A stretch of 64,000 nt of DNA. Origin: Eledone cirrhosa (lineage: Eukaryota). A model generated the notes under the pieces. The model did not search any database. It saw only the letters and a list, made by a program, of their open reading frames with translations, and was not told the origin of the DNA. Both the position numbers and the translations under genes were made by a program. Positions 958-63,565 of the stretch are shown here, piece by piece (within the stretch, counting starts at the first letter, position 1; every line of letters begins with the position of its first letter). Location: contig OZ024740.1 of assembly GCA_964016885.1 (NCBI GenBank), positions 127,472,001 to 127,536,000 of the forward strand, given 5' to 3'.

Positions 958-1391
958 ATATTTATACTTATATATAAACTATATATAGTTATAAACAGGA
1001 AAGGGCAGTATTTTTTTATTTTTTACCACCTTTTACCAGTATGTTAAAAATAGCTCAACGTAAATACATAAGATGCTTTACAGAGCAGGAATATAAAGTT
1101 CGAAACAACCAAAACTGTGTTCAATTCACTTCATTGCTAACAATCGTTTCTTCCAAACAGCCTTTTGGAGTCATCGGAACATTGGCAAAGTTTAAACATA
1201 TAATTAACCTCCTATTATACAGATCAATCATAAAGATATATTGATATTATTGTTGCTATCAACAATGTCATATTTAAAGAGAGTGAAGATGTTGTAGTCA
1301 GTAGCAATGGGTATAATAAAGATTATAAAATAATTATAAAAGTAATTTACTCGCAAAGGAGGACATTATTGGTACATAGGCATATATACAG

Positions 1392-15239: not shown

Positions 15240-18255
<3,016 letters not shown>

Positions 18256-18273
18256 TCAATTAGTGATGTACAA

Positions 18274-19017
18274 CTCCACACACAACCCCCTCAACAATGA
18301 GGCCTTTGACACCATCCTCCAGAACATCCCTGTATTGAAAAAGGACCATAGAATGAACCCAATTCTACGAACACACGATATCATAAAGAGCAAAAGACAA
18401 TTCAAGTCAATGAAAAACATCTTAACACATGCCAAAGTACTGCCAACCACAACAACGAAACCCACAGTAAAAAAAATGCGATAGACCCAACTGTGGCATT
18501 TGCATCAACCTAATAGAGGGTTCGGAATTCTATTTCAAATATGGACAACGTTTTATAGTAAAACACAATTTCACATGTGCATCGGAAAATCTAATATATG
18601 TATTAACTTGTTCAGGTTGTCGAGAACAATACATAGGCCAGACCAAAAACAGCCTCCGCCAACGCATGACTGTCCATAGATCCCAAATTAAAATACGGAA
18701 ATACAGGAAAATACCACTGAGTGAACACATTGATACCTGTGCCGCCCAAAATCATCCCAACTTCAGCATCTTTCCCCTCTACCAATTTAAAGATAATGCC
18801 ACCCACACCCAGCGCATCAGCAAGGAATCTTACTTCATTAACAAATACGGACCCCGTCTAAACACTTCTCCCTAAGACAAACCCACAACATACACACGTC
18901 AACATACATACCTACATCAGCACACATCTCTACCCACATATAAACACAATGACACACGTAAACACACATGCTCTATGGTGCAATACAAAGAAATATATGT
19001 GCAGATATATGTATGTA

Positions 19018-20299: not shown

Positions 20300-20988
20300 A
20301 ACAATTTAAATAACCAACAATTTAACCTAAAATGGGATATAATAGTGTTTGCCCCTGCATAGTCCCAAGGACAGGAATTTGAAAATTGTGTAATATGGAA
20401 TTATTTTGTATTATGAAATACAAAAATATGTTATTAAATAAGAGAATAGAGCGATCGTTATACTGTAACCATCGCTGGAAATCTACATTTTCATATTACA
20501 AACGCTACCAGGATTGAACGCATGTCTCCATCTCCGTTTGATTGTCAAAATACATATTAACATTCTCTATTAGTCTTAATTCTATTAACTCTTCTATTTT
20601 TTACCATTTAATATAAACTGCTATAGATAAAATGAGATTTCTTAATTCAATTCCCTAATGCAGGCTACCAGCATTGTTGTTATACAGTAGCAGTAAAATC
20701 TCCCTCTTCCTTAATTGACACTTTATATCTGTATTAATACTACTACACCAAACGACCAGCCCTGTCCATTGTTCAATTGGTCAAATATAGATTAAAATAG
20801 GCACTCCCAAAAATTCTTATTTAGATAAAATAAGCCATATACTCATTGTATTCTCATTAAAAACCTTCTATATACTTGTTTACCAGTAAATTGAATTGCC
20901 ATCTGTCATATACTATCCCCTCTCTTCTTCCTTTCTTACAACTAATATAAATACTTCAATTTTTCTGCTTTTTTTCCTATTTATCCAA

Positions 20989-21107
20989 TATCTCTGAAGA
21001 AGTGACAACTGATTATACATTTGCTATCGAATACTTGCTAACATTATATGATTACGCAAGCAGCGATACATAGGTATTCCGTCTGCTACAGAAACATATG
21101 TCCATAG
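20989..21107 (+). ncRNA. Hammerhead ribozyme with 90-nt expanded stem II (5' pLTR)
   Basis: CTGAAGA(20994)-a-gtgaca...tgctac-a-GAAA(21091)-catatg-TC. Palindromic stem III ACATATGT; stem I is degenerate. Confidence 0.65.
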
Positions 21108-21313
21108 CTAATAAATTCCTTTATAAAAGCACTTTCATTTTATATTCATCTTTTCTACATTTTCTCCGGAATATAATTTATACTCGTTGAGCAAACCTAC
21201 ACGTACGCTGTTCATCTCTAACGTGACGATATATTATCACTACATTATTGATAACTTGAAATTTTAATAATCTCCTATACAGTTGAGCAACTAATTCAGC
21301 ATACGTCTCTAAA

Positions 21314-23621: not shown

Positions 23622-24091
23622 ACGCCTGTCTCCATATCCTTTTGATTGTCAAAATACACATTAACATTCTCTATTAGTCTTAATTCTATCAACTCTTCTA
23701 TTCTTTACCATTTAATATAAACTGCTATAGATAAAATGAGATTTCTTAATTCAATTCCTTAATGCAGGCTACCAGTATTGTTGTTATACAGTAGCAGTAA
23801 AATCTCCCTCTTCCTTAATTGACACTTTATATCTGTATTAATACTACTACACCAAACGACCAGCCCTGTCCATTGTTCAATTGGTCAAATATAGATTAAA
23901 ATAGGCACTCCCAAAAATTCTTATTTAGATAAAATAAGCCATATACTCATTGTATTCTCATTAAAAACCTTCTATATACTTGTTTACCAGTAAATTGAAT
24001 TGCCATCTGTCATATACTATACCCTCTCTTCTTCCTTTCTTACAACTAATATAAATACTTCAATTTTTCTGATTTTTTCCAATTTATCCAA

Positions 24092-24186
24092 TATCTCTGA
24101 AGAAGTGACAACTGATTATACATTATATGATTACGCAAGCAGCGATACATAGGTATTCCGTCTGTTACAGAAACATATGTCAATAC
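24092..24186 (+). ncRNA. Hammerhead ribozyme with expanded stem II (3' pLTR; 24-nt internal deletion)
   Basis: CTGAAGA(24097)-a-gtgaca...tgttac-a-GAAA(24170)-catatg-TC. Confidence 0.65.
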
Positions 24187-24231
24187 CTAATAAATTTCTT
24201 TATAAAAGCACTTTCATTTTATATTCATCTT

Positions 24232-26761: not shown

Positions 26762-26857
<96 letters not shown>

Positions 26858-26858
<1 letters not shown>

Positions 26859-29200
26859 TATACCCGCAACCCCCACCCGAAGGACCATAAGGTAAATTTT
26901 GACTCTAACCCTAAGATTAGACTTATATGCCCTTCTAAATCAGACATAGGAAAAATTAGCAAACATATACTTGAAAGAGTAATAACTCAATTGAAAAAGA
27001 AAATAGAAATTAGCAAACATATACTTGACAGAGTAATAACTCAATTGAAAAAGAAAATAGAAATTAAATTATTGGGCAACACTAGCGAAGCAATTCGCTG
27101 GTTTAATATCGTTAAGAACAAGAATAAATCTAAGTTTATACAATTTGACATAGACGAATACTACTCTTCAATCTCACCCGGCACTTTACGCAAGGCCCTA
27201 TCATTTGCTAAAGTCAATTCCGACCTAACGGAGGACTAAATCAATATTATTCTAGAGGCTAGAAAAACTATTATCAAGTTTGATAACTGCTACTGGGAAC
27301 GTAAGGACAGACCCACAAACTTCGACATTACCATGGGTTCCAACGACTCAGCGGAGGTCACCGATCTTGTGGGAATTTACATAGCCCATATACTACATGG
27401 TATACTTAGTAATCTACAGGGGGGAATATATAGAGATGACGGGCTCTTATTAGTTAATAACTTAAATAACCAATTGAAAGGCTACGGAAAACATTAGAAA
27501 ATCTTTTAGTGAACTGGGTCTAAAAATAACGTACGAATACAATCTTAAAGTAGTAACTTTTCTAGACGTAACTCTTCCTCAAGATAAATGACATCCTTAC
27601 CTATATCAATTTTAACTCAAACCACACACTTTCCATGATCAAATCGGTTCCCCGTAGTATTTCTCTTAGAATCTCTCGCCTATCGTCTGACTCTGAGATT
27701 TTCAGTGAACATGCTGAATACTATAATAATGCATTAAGGAATGCCGACCACCGGGATACAATAGAATACATTGCTAAGAATCTCCATAACACACACAGCT
27801 CTACACGAAATCAAAGAATACGTAACCGGGGTACTGAAATACAAGCGCACACACGCAGTACCACCAGACATACTAATAATAGAAAAATCATCACCAAATA
27901 AATCACGTTGTAGAAAGTATATCTGGTATAATCCCATTTTTAATGCTTCGATTAGTAGAAAACTATTATTTCATTCTTTAAGTTAATCAACAATCATTTC
28001 CCTAGATCCCATAAATACAGTAAAATTCTGAACTGTAAAACTATTAAACTATCATACTCCACGGCACCAAACCTTGAAGCATCTACCACTACCTCCTTTA
28101 AATCTCGCTGGTATCGTCATCGATTCTCAATTAAACATCCTAATCACCGTTTTGTGACCACGTTCGCCAACAAGACCTGGCAACTCCGTGAACGCAACCA
28201 ACAGTTCACCTTGAAATGGAATATACTTTCCAGCGCTAGTGCATATCGAAGTGGATTGAAGTACTGTAGGTTATGTAACCTTGAACTATTTTACATCTTA
28301 AAATCCCAAAATAAATTACTAAATGATAGAATCGAACGATACTGCAACCACAAACTGAAGGCTAAATTCTCTCACTATAAAATAACTTAACATTCGAACC
28401 CGTAACTATGATATTGCTTTCTAGCTAACCACTTTCTCTTCCCCCACACTACAAGACAATACCATGCTTATCACTATAAATGGAAACTTAGTGCAATTTG
28501 TAGCCTACTACTATGAACTCAATGTACACCCTAACCCAGAGCTGTCGTCTGTCTCCTCTCTATCTGTCCCTCTCTATCCATTCCCCCCTTTCTCTCTCTC
28601 GCCCTAGGTCCACCTCCCTCCCTCTCCACATCCATGAACCTGCCATCTGTGGCAATAAATAATTCAAACCTTGACTATCAACGCATCGCTTAAGGTGGTC
28701 GCTTTAAGTGTAACCATTATAAAAAAAACCCTACCACAACATTTTGATTAAGATATCTACAAACCACTCTCTCCCATTTCTCCAACCCCTGCATATCTCT
28801 CCCCCTCTCTCCCTCTCCCCTTCTTTTCTCTCTTCCTTTTCTACTCTATCTTCCCCAATAACCTCACTTAAGGGTATTTACATTGTACATTTTAACCATT
28901 CTGCTCTGATGATACAGTGGTCACAGCATTTGATAATTGAGTTTTGCAAATAGTTATAAATTTACACATCGCATAACTAGGCTGTATAACCAACGTGGAA
29001 ACATTTGTAAGCACACAGAATACATTACCCTTTTATGATGTCTACCTGTTATTATTCATTCTTTATCTACACTCCGGAATACAGAAAAATCAGGAACTGA
29101 GTTTATTCAACTATTATTCCATAACTCGCTGAGTAACCTCTCACCGTACGTCAACTCTATCCAGTGTAGTAATTAACCATTACTGCATCCAGGATAATCC
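26858..29200 (+). mobile_element. 5'-truncated, internally deleted Naiad-type PLE
   Basis: [55 protein letters not shown]; stops, frameshifts and a deletion near 28080; starts inside (TA)n. Confidence 0.9.
28902..29013 (+). ncRNA. Hammerhead ribozyme with 85-nt branched stem II
   Basis: tgct-CTGATGA-[tac..tggt..acagc...gctgt..acca..gtg]-GAAA-catttg-TA-agca; stem I tgct/agca. Confidence 0.8.
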
Positions 29201-29243
29201 TATATATATATATATATATTTATTTATTAAAATAACAGATTAA

Positions 29244-29294
29244 AGTTTAAGCAAAGAATCGCTGCTTTCACCCATAACGGGATCTTCTGAAACT
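29244..29294 (-). ncRNA. Variant hammerhead (CAGAAGA core)
   Basis: agttt-CAGAAGA-t-ccc gttat ggg-t-GAAA-gca..tgc-TT-aaact. Confidence 0.65.
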
Positions 29295-30358
29295 AACAAA
29301 GTCAATCTGTAAACGCAGAAGTGAATATTTCAAAAAACGTTGCAACCGGAGGAAGACAGGAAGACGATATTTGGTTCGTGGAAACGTTCCCTATGCAAAT
29401 AAGTAAAGGAATAAACAAAACCTATACTTAGCTCCCACATCAAGACGTAAAATATCCACGTATAGATCGTACTATCCGTTAGGGTATAACGTAGGGCTAT
29501 AATACAGGAAAGTGTTGTGCAATTTATGTTTACAAGCCGAAATTGCCTCAGATTTTTTGTTTAAGATGTGGTCTGTGGCGTAGAGTATTTCCAGGGCCTC
29601 AGCGGCGCAGAGGTCACATGGTCTTTTATTTCCGTTATACGATCTAGCCCTAGCTAGGATCTCCCAGTGTAACTTATATTGGGTGTGGTTGTCTTTTAGA
29701 CTTTAGATATAAGCTGAAAGTGACGTCATATTCCTTCTTAGAGGGTAACGAAAAGAATGGGTATGCATGTAAAGACGCTGCTTGAAACTATTGGCGGTTA
29801 ACCCTGTGTAGGCCCTACGGGACGTGGGTGTTACAACCTTACATTTGTAGACAATGTTACTAGAGAGGCATTTCCCGGATAGGGGGCAATCAGCGCGATT
29901 CCTACAATTACAGTTAGTACTAACTACTGGGTTGCACGTGTTCCTACGGCTAGGTAGTTTAGCTAAATTTGAAGCTGTGATGTTATGTGCAAGGTTAGGA
30001 GTCGTAGAATCAGAAATGTTAATATTTACTATATTTATGTGTAGGGGGAAAACGCTTCGTAATAAGGGAAAGAAAGATCTTAGCTAAAGGTGTGGCCATC
30101 TCCATATTATATGGTGGATTATACCAACAAATGCGACGGGATCTATTTCTTCTAGGTCTATTTCCGTACTCTGTATAATCTACCTTATCGACAAATCCAC
30201 TTCGAGCAAGAGCTTCATTGTAATAAGTGGAATGGTCGTTGAAAATACGCTCGTTAGTGGAAAGACTGGAATGCCTCAACGAAACGTTTCTTACCAGGTT
30301 CTTGGTTATGCAACGTTTTTTGAAATATTAACTTCTGCGTTTACAGATTGACTTTGGT

Positions 30359-34251: not shown

Positions 34252-36508
34252 GGGAGACATGATAGGAAGCATAAAAAACACTTGTGAGCAGTGAAGTTTT
34301 AAATCAACATATGTTGATTTAAAACTTCACTTCTACAAAGAACATACTCATACCAAGCAGGAAAACTCCTGATACAGAAAACAGACGCGTTCATTAAAAG
34401 GTTGCGTGGGCGTGCCTTTTATTTCGATAAGCAGCGAAAAGCAGACAACAAACAGGATAAATTTGGGTTTAAAACCTATAATAACCCTGCGTGTAACCCA
34501 GCATTGCTACCCTTCGTAAATGATGTCTCGGAACTCATACGGAATATCAAATTTCGGAATAGGAACAATTCCTTCCAGCAGGACCTGAAGAATAATATTC
34601 GTTCTATTAAAGATTCTAATGCCGTGCACGTCCATTCCGACAAAACTGGCAACCTATATCAAGTGGAGTGCAGTACTTACCATCAACTACTACATAATAC
34701 TGTAACTAAGGATTACCGTAAAACTAATCGGTGCGTTATTAATGATATCAGCGATGCTGGCTTTAAAATCACCTCTTATCTCAACATCCTGGACCGGACC
34801 GAACCTCTGGACCCTATTTCTCCCCACTTTACCCTGAAGGATCACAAATCCAATTTTCCGAACAACCCCTCTATTCGGCTTATTAACCCTACGAAGTGCG
34901 ATTTAGGTAGACTTAGTAAAAGGATTCTTGATAGAATTATACCTGAAATTAGAAGTTCGGCCCCTCTTGCACTGTGGAACAATTGTTTCGCGGTGATTGA
35001 TTGGTTCAACGGCATATGCAACAAGGAACATTGCCGTTTTATCCAATTCGACATCAATAATTACTACTCCTCCATCACTTTACCACTTCTCCTTAGAACT
35101 ATCAATTTCGCTAAAACACTCACAGTGGTTAAGGATTTCGAAGATGATGTCATCCTCAATGCCCGTAAGTCGGTGATTATTTTCGACGACTCTATTTGGA
35201 TAAAAAAATCAAATAGTACCTCATTCGACGTGCGTATAGGCGCCAGCGATTCTGCGGAGATAACTGATCTTATCGGCCTTTTCCTTATTTTCTCTATCAA
35301 GGACAAATTCCCCAATGTGGGCGGTGGTTTGTACCGTGATGATGGTCTTTTGACCATGACTAAATGCGGCCCAGTTGCTTGCGACAGGTTCAGAAAATAA
35401 CTCACAGCCTTCTTTAAAGGCTTCAACCGCTCTATACAGGTTGAGGCCAACCTCTCGGTCGTTAATTACCTCGACGTTACCCTCAATTTATCGAATGGCT
35501 TGTATTATCCGTATAGAAAGCCAAATGATACGCTTAATTACATAGGTAAGCATTCTAACGTGCTGCCAGCATAACCAAGAACCTGGTAAGAGACGTTTCT
35601 TTGAGGCTTTCCCGTCTATCTACTAACGAGCATATTTTCAATGACAAATTCCACATATTACAATGAAGCTCTTGCTCGGAGTGGATTTGTCGATAAGGTA
35701 GCATACACAGAGTACGGGAATATACCTAGAAGAAATAGATTCCGACGCATTATATGGTATAACCCACTATATAATATGGAGGTGGCCACACCATTAGCTA
35801 AGATCTTTCTATCCCTTATTACGAAGCATTTTCCCCCTACACATAAATATAGTAACATTTTTAATAGAAATACTATTAAAATGTCTTACTCTACGACTAC
35901 TAATCTTGCACATAACATCACAGCTTCAAATTTAGCTAAACTACCTAGCCGTAGGAACACGTGCAACGCTGTAGTTAGTAATAACTCTAATTGTAGGAAT
36001 CGGAGTGATTGCTCCCCATCCGGGAAATGCCTCTCTAGTAACATTGTCTACAAATGTAAGGTTGAAACACCCACGTCCCGTAGGGCTTACATAGAGATAC
36101 CCGCCAATAGATTCAAGCAGCGTCTTTACATGCATACCCATTGTTTTCGTTAGCATCTAAGAAGGAATATGACGTCACTTTCAGCTTATATCTGGGGTCT
36201 AAAAGACAACCACACCAAAATATAAGTTAAACTGGGAGATCCTAGCTAGGGCTAGATCGTATAACGGAAATAAAAGACAATGTGACCTCTGCGCCGCTGA
36301 GGCCCTGGAACTGCACTACGCCACAGACCACATCTTAAACAAAAAATCTGAGGCAATTTCGGCTTGTAAACATAAATTGCACAACGCTTTCCTGTATTAC
36401 AGCCCCACATTATACCCTAACGGATAGTACGATCTATACGTGGATATTTTACGTCTTGATATGGGAGCTAAGTATCGGTTTTGTTTATTCCTTTACTTAT
36501 TTGCATAG

Positions 36509-38101: not shown

Positions 38102-39880
38102 GCACTCACTTTGCCTGCTGAAAAGTATGAATGTTAGATTCTTATAGAATTCCAGTAATAATCAGGAACTGATTATACAGAGCGGTTGCCGGTCCAGCAA
38201 AAATTGAAAATTAGAATTGGTTCTCTGAAATAGATTATCTCCCTTTGCTCTGTCAGCTTATCTCCCTTTGTTTGCTGAAAAAAGAAGTAAGTGAAATAGT
38301 CACTACTTTAAAACAATAGCATAAGGTCTTCAAAATGCTTTTAATTAAGCATACAGTGTATTGCAAAATACATTATTTATACATTCATATATATAACGCT
38401 AATTCATAGCACCAATTGTAATTTTCAGTATTTAAAGTTTATATACTTTTAATATAATTACTTTCAATTACCTATAATAATGTAGTGATTTAATACAGTA
38501 TATAAACTTTAAATACTAGATACGGCAGTGAATTATATATGCAATTGTAATTAAATGTAAGGAGTAATAACATTAGATATATATAGGATTAATTTATTAA
38601 TATAAGGGATCTGTCTAACTTATATGTAAGGTGCTGCAATGAATTATATATGAATTATATATGCAGGTATAATTGATGGATAGATTAATGACATTGTAAA
38701 TGATGGATGTATTTGTCTGCCCTAGAGATGTATTTGGTTTTATCATGCAAACAGCCATACGCTACTCCATAACTCACCAGGGGTTATGTGGACAACATTC
38801 TAATAGGTCCTCGGATATGTTTTGAGAGTAGACTGCATTTACAGTGAACTCTGATATAAAGATATGGCATTTTGTATGGAAGGTTCAATTGGAGCACTAT
38901 ATAATAAGGAGTAATCAACTTCCTATAGATACCTTTAATACATTATGATAGAGTAGACTGTATTTAAAATTTAAAATTTAAAATTTAAAATTAGATATAA
39001 ATATATAACCTTTTATATAAGGAACTCAATTGAGGCACCATATAATGTATGTTAGAACAATGAATTTAGATATGAGAATCAGCTAGTTACCTCCCCTTAT
39101 GCATTAACTCCCCTTAATTACACACCTACTTCCGGGTAATAAACCACTGTAAATTCTCGCAGCAGAAAGAACCTATTCTATAAATATGGATTAAATAACA
39201 CTGAGCCTCAATACGCTACAATAATTTAATGCACCAAACATTCAATACGGAATCATGGTAACTTATGTGATGGATGTGAACACTTTTCTTACTTTTCCTG
39301 GATGTGAAAATGGTGGTGGATATGAAAACTATAACTTTCTTTTTCTTCTTCTTTTTCTTTTTCTGCACACATACTTTTTTGATCTATACAAAAAATACCC
39401 TACCACTACAACCACCATAATACTCTTGCTTACACGCTTAAAGTGCTTGCATTACATGTAACACTTTGCCACACAATAATCGTATCTAAATTAGACACAC
39501 TTGCATGCTCCATGTGTAACTAACCCATACACTACATACTAGATCTGACTATCAAACTATCCTCTTGCATTATCTGTATTATCTGCCGAATGTATTTTAA
39601 TTTTGATTTTGATTTTGATTTTGATTTTGAATTTGAATTGCTGTACAAAGATAGTATAGTATAATATGTCACTCCACTGTACATCAATATATATATATGT
39701 ATCTGTATGTCTCTTGCGTTGGAAAGGAAGTCAATTATATGTACAAACATTGAAAAATGGTCCGAAGATTCCAAGCCTAGGTTTGGATGAAACAATTGTA
39801 AGTGAATGAATGCTTTGAACATAGCTTTGATTCTTGTGAAATCTCTATATATATACACACATATATATATATATATATAT

Positions 39881-46572: not shown

Positions 46573-47625
46573 GAGTCCTATCGGTTGCCAGTTGCTAATC
46601 GCTTTACCGTGTCGGTTGTCACAAACAGTCATTGCGCTGAGATACAACCGGTACTGGCATTGATAAATATGATGGGTCCGTCAACCCTTATTATTATTAT
46701 CTCCCAACGAGCGGAATATTGAGAGTAAGTTAAACAATTTTTCACTTTTTATTGTGTTTTTGTTTTGATATGCACTCCTCTTCCTGCTACTAATTTTGTC
46801 TCTCACTCTTTTAAGTTGTGAATTAGACTGGTTATCTACTCACGTGGCTGACACATTTCAGCTCGCTACTATATTGTTATATAATGGATGATAGCATTTA
46901 AAGTTCGTTAAAGGTTCTTGGCACTATCATTGTTACCATCGCTTTCCTCTAGCCATGGGGCTTGGAGACATGAACCGAATGCTACCATTCTATTTTATAT
47001 CAATGTGAACTGCTATTTCTAATAACCATCTTTTCACCCCTTCATAATTTGTGTGTGAGACACGTTGGCTGAGATCTTCTGACAGGAACTAAAAGATTCA
47101 TTCTTTTTAGCTTCACGTTCCCACGTAATATTTGTAAATCAGTGGCTAGTTGAGAGATAGAGTCCTATCGGTTGCCAGTTGTTAATCGCTTTACCGTGTC
47201 GGTTGTCACACCAGTCATGATCGGCATGGGCCGGAGTTTGGATTCTGTCGATCGGTTGGTTATTGATTAGGCGATACCCGCTGATGAAGCCGCATAAGCC
47301 GGTTGTGCATTGTTGCATAATATATGCAGACAGATGTTGCAGTGCACCTTACTGTTGCATTAGTGCGGCAGAAACTCGAGTCCGGGAACCTTATATGCAC
47401 CCGTTTTACGTGTGTTGTGTTGAGGCAAATAACTATGTGTATACTCTGGTAATGTATCTTACATTGCCGATTGAGTGCGCTGAGATACAACCGGTACTGG
47501 CATTGATAAATATGCTGGGTCCGTCAACCCTTATTATTATTATTATCTCCCAACGAACGCAATATTGAGAGTAAGTTAAACAATGTTTAACTTTTTATTA
47601 TGTTTTTGTTTTGATATGCACTCTT
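46571..47625 (+). mobile_element. Non-coding partial-tandem element (repeats start ~46571 and ~47158) carrying an expanded hammerhead
   Basis: tagagtcctatcggttgccag... is duplicated; the second repeat holds an extra 257 nt containing the HHR. Confidence 0.7.
47277..47386 (+). ncRNA. Hammerhead ribozyme with 83-nt branched stem II
   Basis: cccg-CTGATGA-a-gccgca...tgcggc-a-GAAA-ctcgag-TC-cggg; palindromic stem III ACTCGAGT; inner helices gtgcattg/cagtgcac and tgcata/tatgca. Confidence 0.88.
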
Positions 47626-48198: not shown

Positions 48199-48784
48199 AA
48201 GGTAAATAAGGTTTTGTTTATCTACACTCTCGACCATATATTGCAAACGTCAAAACATTCATCTATAACAGTGGTCAAAGAATAATTGTTCCACATCACA
48301 GCACTCATATTGATAATGTGAAAGTATTTACCTCCACACCCTCTCCTTTTAACTACTCTCTCTACTATCACACTAACTTACTGTAATTATTCTATGTTTA
48401 TTGTCATAAGTGTTGCATATGATTGAACAATATCTATTGTATTCAGCATATGTAGACAATTGTAATAGACACAGAAACATATGTTAAAGCAAATATATTC
48501 CAAATCTCCTTTCTCGCCGATCATTATATTTTTCTTGGTGCAGTACTTGTTTATATTATATTATATTATATATATATATATATATTTATTAAAATAACAG
48601 ATTAAACTTTAAGAAAAGAATCGCTGCTTTCACTCTTAACGGTTATTTGATATATATTTATCCTTATCAAGCCCTCTTTGGATTTTAGTCTTCAAATTTA
48701 TTATTATTACTATATATATATATATTTCGTTTCTGAATTTGTTTAGCAAGATTCTTTATCTGAAAACGTGTGTTGAAACCGATA

Positions 48785-50115
48785 TTATTATACTTTGGGA
48801 GGGTCATATTGCCAATAAGAAACACACGCACCAGTTGCTTTCACTTCAATTTATTATAATAAATTTATAAATTTAGGAATTTATAAATTTCCGGTTGGTT
48901 GGTTGGTTCCACAACCAGATGGTTGTTTATATATTGTCAGAGTTCTTTCGTCACACATTCTGTGACCTCTTCAGTGACTGGGAATACTTTTCTTTGTTTT
49001 TGTGCCTCTCCTTTGTTCTGTCCTACGCCATCTTGTTTCTGTGTGTGTGTTGTGTACTCAGTCTGCGCATGCGCCACATCCGGGTGTCTGTGTGTGTTTA
49101 TATTCGTTTATTTATTTGTTTGTTTACAGGTTACAGGTTGGTTGTTTGTTGTATGTGCGTGTGTGTTTTCATTTTGTCCTTAATTTTAAGTTGTGATGTT
49201 GCTGTTCCACTCATGTTTTCTATTTAATTTTGGTTGTAATTCTTTTATGTTTATTGCCTCTGTGATTTGTCTAAACATTGCATCTTTTCTGTGTGTAGAT
49301 TCTATTTTTATTTCTATGTTCTCTAATTTACCCTTATCTTCTATTTTAGCATGTTGGTAGAGTACAGATGATTCTTTACTATCTTGAAGGTCTCGCCAGT
49401 GTTCATGTATCCGTTCCCCTACACTACGAGCTGTCTCACCTATGTACACTATATTTTTGTCTCTACATTGTCCTTCAGTACATCTTATGCTATATACTAC
49501 ATTTCTAGTTTTACAGTTAATATGGGGGCTTAATTTACAGGTTATACATTTCTTGTCTATACAGGGGGTCTTTGAAAAGAGTATGTCTTGCTAATAAGTT
49601 TTTTTACGGAGCTACCTGGTCTTTCTACTATCTTAATATTGAGTTTATGTTTATCTAGGGCCCTTCTAAAATTGTAAGCTAATTCACCTCTAGGGGTTGT
49701 ATCGATGAACATTACACTCTGATATTTATTGCTATCTTACCATGAGTTTATTCTATTAGCCTTATTCCTAGTTCTTTCTATTCTATTCCAAAATTTGCTC
49801 CTATACAAGAGGCAGGTCCCATTTGTGTCATTATTTCCCATTTTTTCCCATTTGGTTCTGGCTCCTCTATACACTCTGATTTTATCTCTCTGATTGGAAC
49901 CAGAGAACTGCATACGGTGGATGAAGTGTTGTATGTGTCTCTCTAGTTCTGCGGGGTTGCACATGCGGGACACGTTTCTCATCACCCGTACCAAATCCGC
50001 AATCAGTATGTTGATTTTGGTATGGTCCGAAACAGCTGAGTTTCGGTGGATCAGATATTTGGAAGTCATGGTTTTGGCATAATGGGAATGGAGGATTTGT
50101 TTTTTGTTATTAATA
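48785..50115 (-). mobile_element. Nematis-like PLE 3' half (RT thumb + GIY-YIG), left arm of an inverted pair; HHR at 48936-48978
   Basis: ORFs 49737..50069 and 49186..49449 (YIGETARSVGERIHEHW...RQITEAINI...LNRKHEW); gtca-CTGAAGA-g gtcaca/tgtgac-GAAA-gaac-TC-tgac. Confidence 0.85.
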
Positions 50116-50126
50116 ACATACCAAAA

Positions 50127-51360
50127 TAAAAATACTGATTGCGGATTTGGTACGGGTGATGAGAAACGTGTCCCGCATGTGCAACCCCGAAGAACTAGAG
50201 AGACACATACAACACTTCATCCACCGTATGCAGTTCTCTGGTTCCAATCAGAGAGATAAAATCAGAGTGTATAGAGGAGCCAGAACCAAATGGGAAAAAA
50301 TGGTAAATAATGACACAAATGGCCCCTGCCTCTTGTATAGGAGCAAATTTTGGAATAGAATAGAAAGAACTAGGAATAAGGCTAATAGAATAAACTGATG
50401 GTATGATAGCAATAAATACCAGAGTGTAATGTTCATCGATACAACCCCTAGAGGTGAATTAGCTTACAAATTTAGAAGGGCCCTAGATAAACATAAACTC
50501 AATATTAAGATATTAGAAATACCAGGTAGCTCCGTAAAAACACTTATTAGCAAGACATACCCTTTTCAAAGACCCCCTGTATAGATAAGAAATGTATAAC
50601 CTGTAAATTAAGCCCCCATATTAACTGTAAAACTAGAAATGTAGTATATAGCATAAGATGTACTGAAGGACAATGTAGAGACAAAAATATAGTGTACATA
50701 GGTGAGACAGCTCGTAGTATAGGGGAACGGATAAATTAACACTGGCGAGACCTTCAAGATAGTAAAGAATCATCTGTACTCTACCAACATGCTAAAATAG
50801 AACATAAGGGTAAATTAGAGAACATAGAAATAAAAATAGAATCTACACACAGAAAAGATGCAATGTTTAGACAAATCACAGAGGCAATAAACATAAAAGA
50901 ATTACAACCAAAATATAAATAGAAAACATGAGTGGAACAGCAACATCACAACTTACAATTAAGGACAAAATGAAAACAGACACGCACATACAACAAACAA
51001 CCAAACTGTAACCTGTAAATAAACAAATAAATAAACGAATATAAACACACACAGACACCCGGATGTGCCGCATGTGCAGACTGAGCACACAACACACACA
51101 CAGAAACAAGATGGCGTAGGACAGAACAAAGGAGAGGCACAAAAACAAAGAAAAGAATCCCCCAGCCACTGAAGATGTCACAGAATGTGTAACGAAAGAA
51201 CTTTGACAATATATAAACAACCATCTGGTTGTGGAACCAACCAACCAACCGGAAATTTATAAATTCCTAAATTTATAAATTTATTATAATAAATTGAAGT
51301 GAAAGCAGCTGGAGTGTGTGTTTCTTATTGGCAACATGACCATCCCAAAGTATAACAATA
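50127..51360 (+). mobile_element. Nematis-like PLE 3' half, right arm; decayed HHR at 51165-51207
   Basis: Reverse complement of ~48785-50010; C..KKCITC...NCKTRNVVYSIRC...YIGET. Confidence 0.85.
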
Positions 51361-59518: not shown

Positions 59519-61157
<1,639 letters not shown>

Positions 61158-61159
61158 GT

Positions 61160-63075
61160 TATAAAATTTATATATTTTATAGATCCATCTGTTATATAGT
61201 TGTGAATGTTAAAATATGAGTTTGTTTACTATAACGTCTTAATATTTAAAGTTTTTCTTAAGAATATATCTAGAGCATAAACCGTAAAATAACCTTTTTA
61301 CATGAGTTCATTCATAGAATGCATTCAAAATTATACATTTCGATATTTATAGACCCACATATACATAGATATACATACATGGATACGCACATATACACAC
61401 ACACATATACATATATACACATACATATACAAATATACATATATATATATAAATACAAAATATATACTATAAAATAAAATAAATATGTGAGTTATAATTT
61501 TAAACAGGATTATAATTTTAAAAGGAATTACAATTTTTAAAAAGGAATTACAATTTTTTAAAAATATAATTATATAATTTTAAAAGGAATTATATTTTTA
61601 AGCAATGTAATTTTTAAGCAATATAATTCCAAAAATATGTAGCTTTTAAAAAATATATATAAGAATATATAGAAAAAACACAGTATGAAATATGTATTAT
61701 AACTTTTTATATATCCATCAGAGGAATTAACCCCAAAAAGCCTCTTTTTAAAACTTTCAGTATGTTTATCTTAATTTTTTATATATCCATTTTTTTTTAA
61801 AACTTTAAGTATGTTTATCTAGAAGAATTTTCAAGTAAAAAATGTTCCTCATTTAAGAGAGTTTTTGGCAGTCGTACGAAGGAATCTAGTGATTTATCGA
61901 TAGGTTTAATAAGATGAGCTATATATTACATTTTAAATTTATATTTAAACGTTGAAATCAATCTATGTTTGCAGCAACTGAAAAGATTGTTCCTTAGATT
62001 CACAGAATTTTTGCTCTTTAATATAAAGAATATTTCCTCTATACAAAGAGCACAATTTTCGGAAGAAGAATTGAATGGAGGAGCTTTGGGGGTAATATTC
62101 CAAAGTAAATAATCGTTAATGTTCTTTAATTTTAGGTCCCATAATAAGCTAGATGGAGAAGAATTTTTATTTATATTCGTAAAAGAGCATTTATGGTTAT
62201 TAAAACGAGATTTGAAGTCTGTGGAAGTAGAACCTATATAATTAAATGAATTTAAATTAGTTTTTACATTACTATTATATACTATATTTTTAGCTAAACA
62301 ATTGTTATTTAGCGGAGAGTTATATTTGTTTCTACAGTTACATTTATCAAAATTCAAGTTACTAGGAGCCGTGTTATTAAATTGGATATTGCTGGTGTTG
62401 TTAATGGTATTCTGGTTAGGTTTTAAGTTTCTATTATTAATTCTATTACTATTCTGCGCTAAATTACTGGTGGTTGAATAAGTTAATTTTATAGTATGTC
62501 TATTAAATATTGAGTAATATCTATGTGTTCTAGGGAAGCATTTGTCAAGAGCTTTAAAGAATAGTTTAGCTATAGGAGTTTTAATATTTAATGAGAAAGG
62601 AAGAGAGAACCATAATATATTCCTAGTTCTATTTCTTTTTTTGTTTATCGAATTATTGTAAGGTTTTCTATTATAGTTGTTAACATTGTTAAAATTATGG
62701 TTAGTTGTTATATTATTATTATTATCAATGTATTTAATTTTATTACTATATCCAGGTCTACCTAACGCTTCGTTGTAATATTGCGCTTTATCAAAAATAT
62801 TCTTATTAGCTGAAATTCTAGAAATGCGTTGCTGTACAGAATTTACTATAATATGTTTAATTGATCTGGGGTGATTGGAGTTAAAATTAACGTAGTTTAA
62901 GTTCTCGTTTAATTTGTGTAATGGATAATGAAGACATGTGTTAAGGTTTAAGGTTACAACTAGAAAGTTAACTATTTCATAATTATTCTCTATTTCTACT
63001 TTAAGATTAATGTAATTAAAAAATTGTATAATTTCTTTACTTTTCCTATTTAATTCACAGTTATTAATTCCAACA
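61160..63075 (-). mobile_element. AT-rich Naiad-type PLE 3' half plus UTR
   Basis: ORF 61926..62357 CNCRNK..PLNNNCLAKNIVY...YIGSTSTDFKSRFNNH...CALC...CKHR; upstream NFLVVTL and CFPRTHRY remnants. Confidence 0.88.
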
Positions 63076-63565
63076 AACTATTAATGGATTTGGAAAATGA
63101 AATCATCTTAATCATTCAAAACATTATATTTAAAAAAAAGACTTCATAGGCCATGATTACTTAAGAAATCTCAAAAGTAATATTGAAAACTTGGAGAAAA
63201 CGGAAAAAATTCTAGTAAAGTCGGACAAAAACAATAATATTTATGGAATGCAGAAGGATATTTATAACGATCTTATATTAAATGAATTAAGGAAAAAATA
63301 CAAAATAACAACTAATGGCGACCTTGAAAAGTTGAATACAGAGGCTTCTTACATAATGCAGGATTTAGGCATTGAAAATAGGAGACAACCCTTCATGCCA
63401 AGGAAACCAAAAATTAATATGAAGGACCACAAAAAGAAATTTGAAATTGACTTACCAGTAAGATTAATTGCACCATCTAAACCCGACCTTGGCATACTTA
63501 GCAATAACATTTTAGACAGAATAATACCACAATTTAAGGAATTATCTTATTTAAATTTTCCTGAA
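63075..63565 (+). mobile_element. Naiad-type PLE N-terminal RT fragment
   Basis: ORF 63191..63577 KSDKNNNIY...KDHKKKF..PVRLIAPSKPDLG. Confidence 0.8.

What the first reader, a model, noticed from the sequence alone, without database searches (positions are those of the whole stretch)
28902..29013. Second, sequence-unrelated expanded-stem-II hammerhead in a Naiad 3' UTR
Seen: an 85-nt stem II folding as tggt/acca plus acagc/gctgt, opening into two hairpins (tttg/caaa and tagttat/ataacta), with a canonical core and tgct/agca stem I. The insert size is close to those at 47277 (83 nt) and 20994 (90 nt) with no obvious sequence similarity. Inference: a recurrent architectural class rather than a chance insertion.
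Basis: partly seen in the sequence, partly recalled or inferred. Interest (0 to 1): 0.72.

Follow-up and report, generated by a model that had tools for sequence, protein, structure and literature searches.

The report
Hammerhead ribozyme with conserved long arm
This is a damaged copy of a hammerhead motif, predicted to be a self-cutting RNA, at the tail of a Hydra-type (not Naiad) Penelope-like jumping gene; its second arm is an 85-base rod with two small conserved internal motifs, found over 13,000 times in this genome, which likely serves as a docking site for the element's own protein.

Summary
The hammerhead is real: type I core, 85-nt helix II, minimal helix III, GUA site. (1) The host element is Hydra-clade (RT then C-terminal GIY-YIG; RWK, DKT, CxCX5C, CxxC/CxH), not Naiad. 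(2) The two-hairpin fold is an artefact of three private mutations in this copy; the family folds as an unbranched rod. (3) The 20994 insert is not unrelated: it belongs to a sister family with the same rod. The 47281 insert is unrelated and branched. The recurrent-class inference holds: 29 of 30 copies picked without the insert carry it, and the rod's 3' strand sits next to a hammerhead core 13,674 times (control 2). All rod carriers whose endonuclease I could place fall in one Hydra subclade. Across families the helices covary (47-49% identity) while two repeated ANU/YAG modules stay 79-90% identical. Published Hydra hammerheads span 12-26 nt here; Rfam misses this form. Most likely role (inferred): protein docking site for a protein-assisted ribozyme. 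Cleavage and expression are untested. This scan has reported long-armed Penelope hammerheads before on other DNA of this and other genomes.

The parts
26857..29200 (+). 5'-truncated, decayed Hydra-clade Penelope-like element ('family B'), between (TA)n tracts
   Evidence: family motifs read in copies L011 and L017
26871..28003 (+). Reverse transcriptase fragments, broken by stops and frameshifts
   Evidence: tblastn
28079..28390 (+). C-terminal GIY-YIG endonuclease remnant with Hydra-type CxxC and CxH; linker deleted in this copy
   Evidence: intact linker CxCX5C in L017
28902..28905 (+). Hammerhead helix I, 5' strand
   Evidence: sequence
28906..28912 (+). Hammerhead core CUGAUGA
   Evidence: sequence
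28913..28997 (+). 85-nt helix II, an unbranched interrupted rod in the family; private changes at 28964, 28970 and 28993 in this copy
28926..28930 (+). Lower conserved module, 5' strand (conserved A28928); partner 28978-28982 (UAG plus two paired bases)
28939..28942 (+). Upper conserved module, 5' strand GAGU; partner 28969-28972 (YAGC in the family, its A changed at 28970 here)
28945..28966 (+). Apical 7-bp hairpin of the family, broken here by the change at 28964
28998..29009 (+). GAA core, minimal near-palindromic helix III, GUA triplet; predicted cut after 29009
   Evidence: sequence; pattern as in PMC8557442 File S2
29010..29200 (+). Helix I 3' strand and the copied stretch beyond the cut site (equals the 5' UTR of the next unit); ends near the longer of two family end points
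20980..21116 (+). Homologous rod hammerhead (90 nt) of sister Hydra family A, in the upstream pseudo-LTR of a full-length decayed copy
24083..24195 (+). Downstream hammerhead of the same family A copy, with a 24-nt deletion in the rod
48410..48457 (+). Rod domain of a further relative ('family H') whose 5' core has decayed

Best explanation
This is a decayed copy of the type I hammerhead in the 3' UTR/pseudo-LTR of a Hydra-clade Penelope-like retroelement, whose helix II carries a subclade-wide rod domain that likely acts as the docking site for the element's own RT-endonuclease protein, which would help a weak, dimer-dependent ribozyme fold and cut. Shown: element type, family-fixed insert, rod fold by covariation, two repeated conserved modules at near-fixed spacing, confinement to one Hydra subclade, and insertion ends about 60 and 200 nt beyond the cut site. 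From published work on relatives: minimal Penelope hammerheads are weak and dimer-dependent, and the anole one cuts only with the element's protein. Inferred: that this motif cuts, that the rod binds a protein, and that the protein is the element's own. This particular copy is predicted to be inactive (single motif, three helix II lesions, broken ORF).
For: Hydra motifs (against 5, 95). 29 of 30 copies carry the insert. Covariation in 19 sequences of three other rod families: 85.6% cells paired, 11 of 23 pairs with two-sided change, 0 of 500 shuffles as high, slid controls 32-44%; unguided RNAalifold gives 9 pairs, 7 with two-sided change, 13 G-U against 4 A-C cells, favouring the plus-strand RNA. 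Between those families the lower and upper modules are 90% and 79% identical against 39-49% for neighbouring helices, linker and apex. 13,674 rod 3' strands beside a core, control 2. One endonuclease clade (SH-aLRT 100, 30 rows) holds every placed rod carrier, and a family placed there by protein alone proved to carry the rod in 2 of its 3 copies. Module-to-core distance varies (13-21 nt on the 5' side) and no Watson-Crick contact with the flanks was found, which fits a stand-alone binding module. Protein-assisted cleavage in a relative: PMC11167929; weak dimer-dependent cleavage: PMC4209133.
Against: No binding or cleavage data. Family B is an outlier of the class: an insert-only model trained on three other families scores intact B copies at only 10.6-12.6 bits (E 2.5-7.4), misses the window copy and family C, and finds 3 of 6 H loci. 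Many Hydra families in the same genome thrive with short helices (4,641 cores with 8-30 nt spans), and the ~60-nt distance from cut site to insertion end also holds for non-rod hammerheads (L235, L236, L238), so the rod is not needed to place reverse transcription. In the anole element the protein-binding region maps downstream, in the ORF, and cleavage is dispensable in vitro. Anchor counts are partly circular; covariation cells are not independent events; the tree is the quick search only.
Confidence: 0.5

Rival explanations
1. The modules make RNA-RNA tertiary contacts (with helix I, or between the two ribozymes of a dimer) that raise cleavage without any protein.
For: Helix I-helix II contacts are the general activator of natural hammerheads (PMC4209133; PMC3088659); non-canonical contacts would leave conserved unpaired bases and escape my pairing test.
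Against: The modules lie 13-21 nt from the core with variable spacing while helix I is 4-9 bp; no complementarity to either flank (own flank better in 8 and 13 of 26); apical loops are not conserved (48%).
Confidence: 0.2
2. The rod is a tolerated passenger: an old insertion kept paired only so that it does not misfold the core.
For: Helix II length varies freely in this genome (14, 34-60, 90-97 nt) and lengthened independently in other lineages (family D, non-coding families T and R).
Against: Unpaired or non-canonically paired positions are kept at 79-90% between families while adjacent helices fall to 47-49% with compensation; the same module is present twice and persists across the deepest split of the subclade.
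Confidence: 0.13
3. The rod is a specific signal unrelated to cleavage (host protein site for RNA stability, export or translation, or a promoter element overlapping it).
For: The pseudo-LTR is also the 5' region of the next unit (ORF start about 250 nt after the cut site); cleavage was dispensable for insertion in the anole element.
Against: Compensatory changes and G-U polarity point to RNA rather than DNA; the rod lies upstream of the cut site, so a cleaved mRNA would carry it only at its 3' end, opened.
Confidence: 0.15
4. One reading: a two-hairpin (three-way junction) insert shared with 47281 in a Naiad 3' UTR.
For: In this one copy the two-hairpin form is 2.9 kcal/mol better than the rod; the 47281 family does fold as a three-way junction.
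Against: Element is Hydra-clade; rod preferred in 18 of 18 distinct family inserts; no similarity between this insert and 47281 (z 0.3-0.5); the rod model has no hit in 3 family R loci.
Confidence: 0.02

Closest known systems
Hydra-clade Penelope-like elements and their hammerheads (Craig et al. 2021, PMC8557442; sections 6 and 11, passages, supplement parts 1, 2, 7 and a supplement search seen)
   Same: Domain order and diagnostic motifs, (TA)n targets, pseudo-LTR, type I hammerhead near the 3' end with a mismatch at the base of helix II and a 3-4 bp helix III.
   Different: The 26 Hydra rows of File S2 have 3-10 nt loops and 12-26 nt between the core strands; here 75-90 nt with conserved internal modules.
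Minimal type I hammerheads of metazoan PLEs (Cervera and de la Pena 2014, PMC4209133; first quarter and passages seen, supplement not seen)
   Same: Short helix I, unpaired base at the foot of helix II, palindromic minimal helix III implying dimer activity; one rod family shows their U3-A8 core variant.
   Different: Their 'large' helix II is 6-8 bp; no inserted domain is described in what I read.
Poseidon element of the green anole (Frangieh et al. 2024, PMC11167929; first half seen)
   Same: Two internal reverse-transcription start points downstream of the hammerhead that define insertion ends; here ends cluster at about +60 and +200.
   Different: Different clade, short helix II; protein-assisted cleavage shown there, untested here.
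Non-canonical hammerheads of spike-moss PLE-X1 (PMC8557442 File S2)
   Same: PLE hammerheads with an enlarged loop II.
   Different: Loops of about 28-34 nt, no described fold, unrelated elements.
Non-LTR retrozymes (PMC7229834 passages; bioRxiv 10.64898/2026.07.22.740005 first fifth)
   Same: Non-coding hammerhead repeats tied to PLEs; families R (47281) and T here fit this pattern.
   Different: The finding itself lies in a coding (autonomous-type) element.

Membership tests
Type I hammerhead ribozyme | CUGANGA, GAAA and NUH core around three helices, helix I open | tested here: met
   U.G (or A.G in about half the copies) instead of G-C at the base of helix II, as usual in Hydra elements
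Type I hammerhead ribozyme | Match to an Rfam hammerhead model | tested here: not met
   no hammerhead hit at E <= 10 for this copy or an intact copy; expected for an 85-nt helix II
Type I hammerhead ribozyme | Helix I-helix II tertiary contact | tested here: inconclusive
   no Watson-Crick pseudoknot in 26 rod sequences; non-canonical contacts not testable
Type I hammerhead ribozyme | Self-cleavage | not testable with these tools
   needs an assay
Naiad PLE | N-terminal GIY-YIG before the RT | tested here: not met
   RT precedes a C-terminal endonuclease; family ORF starts directly with the RWK region
Naiad PLE | DKA motif | tested here: not met
   DKT in families A and B
Hydra PLE | C-terminal GIY-YIG, RWK and DKT motifs | tested here: met
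   L011 and L017 against PMC8557442 section 11 and File S4/Fig. S7 text, compared by eye
Hydra PLE | CxCX5C linker; CxxC and CxH around the catalytic E and N; no CCHH | tested here: met
   L017; CxxC and CxH also in the window copy
Hydra PLE | Short element, (TA)n insertion, pseudo-LTR tandems | tested here: met
Hydra PLE | Placement with published Hydra RTs in a tree | not tested
   published sequences were read but not used in a computation; the tree holds only this genome's endonucleases
Hydra PLE | Canonical short-helix-II hammerhead | tested here: not met
   85 nt against 12-26 nt; this is the variant feature

The most novel reading that the evidence does not exclude
A natural hammerhead with a dedicated, evolutionarily conserved aptamer-like domain built into helix II: twin ANU/YAG modules that bind the element's (possibly dimeric) RT-endonuclease and gate self-cleavage or template choice, defining a whole Hydra subclade of over 13,000 copies invisible to current descriptors.
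Probability: 0.3. Interest if true: 0.75.

Novelty: new variant of a known kind. Interest (0 to 1): 0.5.

Why it matters
What Penelope hammerheads do, and why they barely cut alone, is open; the one biochemical study found protein-assisted cleavage without a defined RNA site near the ribozyme. A conserved, separable domain grafted on helix II gives a precise mutational handle on that question. It also shows that hammerhead censuses with short loop II limits undercount badly: in this genome cores with 70-100 nt spans (7,792) outnumber those with 8-30 nt spans (4,641) for the same helix III pattern.

Tried and rejected
Rfam on the window and on two single copies: no hammerhead or other meaningful family (46 low-scoring rows were not shown). 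Pfam does not recognise the Hydra ORF pieces. Metagenomes: no relative of a Hydra protein; one pattern hit in a 64% GC contig without PLE similarity, treated as chance. Protein search: 1,079 relatives, best 43% identity, no DNA context, so the rod could not be followed to other species. Watson-Crick pseudoknot between rod and flanks: rejected. K-turn, loop E, SECIS and SRP-like readings of the modules were considered from recall and dropped because strand order does not fit; not tested by a tool. Rod as ruler for the reverse-transcription start: weakened by non-rod elements ending at the same distance. The register of the lower module (bulged A with U.G, or a 3x3 A.G/N.A/U.U loop) could not be decided; most families fit the first, family A the second. 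The careful tree did not finish. Three rows for apical and reader helices were mis-indexed; one search has the corrected values.

Full report
Observation. The window holds, on the plus strand, TGCT (28902-28905), CTGATGA, an 85-nt span, GAA, an 8-nt near-palindromic helix III, A29009 and AGCA: a type I hammerhead with a GUA site. Rfam does not see it. It is not chance: a strict descriptor with free helix II length found 49 motifs in 1.2 Mb of genome stretches (120 pieces of 10 kb, 10 of them next to the window) and 0-1 in each of 5 shuffles; spans were 14 nt (26 motifs, 11 from one tandem array), 34-60 nt (20) and 90-97 nt (3). Genome-wide, one helix III pattern gives 7,792 cores with 70-100 nt spans (reversed control 67) and 4,641 with 8-30 nt spans (control 50). 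The genome is 3.0 Gb; I did not determine the species.

Host element. The motif lies about 520 nt after the end of a broken ORF that runs RT first, endonuclease last. Better copies of the family show RWK, DKT, a CxCX5C linker and CxxC/CxH around the catalytic E and N. These are the Hydra diagnostics of Craig et al. 2021 (section 11; sequences compared by eye); Naiads have an N-terminal endonuclease and DKA (section 6). So 'Naiad' is wrong, and the tension with the report that Naiads lack canonical hammerheads disappears. Hydra elements are known to carry hammerheads, but the 26 Hydra rows of File S2 span only 12-26 nt between the core strands.

The insert is fixed in the family. A pattern made of the 5' flank and 5' core alone has 1,414 matches (control 0); of the first 30 along chromosome C1, 29 carry an 84-86 nt insert and one is cut short. 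Several of the 30 are partners in one inverted or tandem insertion, so they are fewer than 30 events. The window copy differs from all 25 full-length 85-nt inserts at 28964, 28970 and 28993. These changes break the apical hairpin, the upper module and a basal pair.

A wider class. Pattern hits gave at least seven families (A, B, C, E, F, G, H) whose inserts share one layout: basal helix, linker, lower module, 6-8 bp helix, upper module, apical hairpin. Both modules read 5'-ANU-3' opposite 5'-YAG-3'. In 19 sequences of E, F and G, which align without gaps over the 49-nt domain, the named structure has 85.6% paired cells and 11 of 23 pairs with two-sided change, above all 500 shuffles and far above slid controls (cells are not independent events and I chose the structure from these sequences). 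Unguided RNAalifold recovers 9 of the pairs, with 13 G-U against 4 A-C cells. Between families the modules keep 90% and 79% identity, the helices, linker and apex 39-49%, the 5' flank 27%, the 3' flank 62%, the catalytic core 98%. The 3' strand of the rod next to a hammerhead 3' core occurs 13,674 times (control 2).

Does the finding belong to it? A model of the whole motif trained on E/F/G ranks 20980, 24083 and 28892 first in the window, aligning the family A insert throughout but the window's damaged B insert only at the core. An insert-only model gives weak scores, but 14 of its 18 hits in 95 kb fall in the helix II spans of held-out families: 8 of 8 B loci (9 hits), 3 of 3 A loci, 3 of 6 H loci give 15 hits by my count of the table, and none of 2 C, 3 R or 3 T loci; it misses the window copy. 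Direct alignment links B to A and A to C weakly (z 2.8 each) and B to 47281 not at all. The independent line is the protein tree: in a quick maximum-likelihood tree of 68 endonuclease pieces (of 86; surplus A and B copies dropped), every placed rod carrier (A, B, C, E, F, G) lies in one clade of 30 rows with SH-aLRT 100; H could not be placed; families with short or differently long helices lie outside. A family placed inside by protein alone carries the rod in 2 of 3 copies, with a U3-A8 core of the kind described by Cervera and de la Pena. I put membership of B in the rod class at about 0.9.

The other two inserts. 20994 is the upstream pseudo-LTR hammerhead of sister family A (RT about 65-70% identical); its downstream twin at 24097 has a 24-nt deletion. 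47281 belongs to a non-coding repeat of about 900 nt with a common 3' end and folds as a three-way junction (z -4.1 for an intact copy), as does family T. Long helix II has thus arisen more than once here; similar length does not mean one class.

How it likely works. Family B insertions end at about +60 (19 of 30) or +193 to +202 (8 of 30) past the cut site, followed by (TA)n; the ORF starts near +250. Other families also cluster at +51 to +66 and near +200. This matches internal initiation of reverse transcription on uncut or multimeric RNA as shown for the anole element, whose hammerhead cuts only when the element's protein is present (PMC11167929). Minimal PLE hammerheads are weak and dimer-dependent (PMC4209133). 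The rod's modules sit at a variable distance from the core but a near-fixed distance from each other and show no pairing with the flanks, which suits a self-contained binding site better than a helix I contact. I therefore favour docking of the element's protein (0.5), ahead of RNA-RNA contact (0.2), another signal (0.15) and passenger (0.13). Against it: short-helix relatives do well without the rod, the end spacing is not rod-specific, and in the anole element binding maps elsewhere. No step past the fold has been tested.

Literature. Six full-text searches turned up no description of a PLE hammerhead with a 75-100 nt structured helix II. I read: PMC8557442 (sections 6, 11, passages, supplement parts 1, 2, 7, one supplement search), PMC4209133 (first of four parts, passages), PMC11167929 (first two of four parts), PMC3088659 and PMC7229834 (passages), bioRxiv 10.64898/2026.07.22.740005 (first of five parts). 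The supplements of PMC4209133 and of the preprint, Arkhipova et al. 2017 and Repbase entries were not seen and could hold such motifs. Earlier notes of this scan describe long-armed Penelope hammerheads on other DNA of this and other genomes, one with a conserved arm and the same protein-binding guess; these are unchecked and not independent support.

Verdict. A new variant of a known kind; the part of specialist interest is the twin-module domain conserved across a Hydra subclade. Interest 0.5.

Noticed in passing
window 47281 (element about 46630-47536): Non-coding repeat family R, about 900-nt unit, 2,431 search candidates, common 3' end; 83-nt helix II folds as a three-way junction. Likely a non-autonomous PLE derivative or retrozyme.
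   Followed up: partly
L191, L203-L205, L220, L071:8720, L034:1960: Family T: tandem non-coding repeats (about 700-1,000 nt) with a 93-97 nt branched helix II whose junction strand is complementary to the 5' flank (own flank much better in 5 of 5 T sequences): a predicted pseudoknot.
   Followed up: partly
L125 and L142, about 600 nt after the endonuclease: Rod family with a U3-A8 core in place of C3-G8 in both copies seen.
   Followed up: partly
L099:5795, L173:6164, L188:162, L091, window 1123-1191 (-) and 39748-39811: Hammerheads with a CCGANGA core (U4 to C) in several rod and non-rod families.
   Followed up: no
L091, L211, L237: Hydra family D has a separate 94-97 nt helix II and lies outside the rod clade: an independent lengthening.
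   Followed up: partly
L119, L143, L131, L090, L107: Tandem repeats of about 525 nt with 49-52 nt helix II and an 8-10 nt palindromic helix III.
   Followed up: no
window 54610 (-), 40248 (-), 38095 (-), 37774 (-); L138: Ordinary short-helix type I hammerheads; L138 has an 11-unit, 310-nt tandem array typical of non-LTR retrozymes.
   Followed up: no
window 17599-18872 and 48974-51169: Two other Penelope-like elements with inverted 5'-truncated partners; the first has a Pfam GIY-YIG hit and a Neptune-like cysteine linker, the second carries hammerhead-like cores in both arms.
   Followed up: no
window 29200-30350 (-), 34318-36406 (+), 60081-63541: Further decayed Hydra elements of other families, one inserted in the (TA)n right after the finding.
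   Followed up: partly
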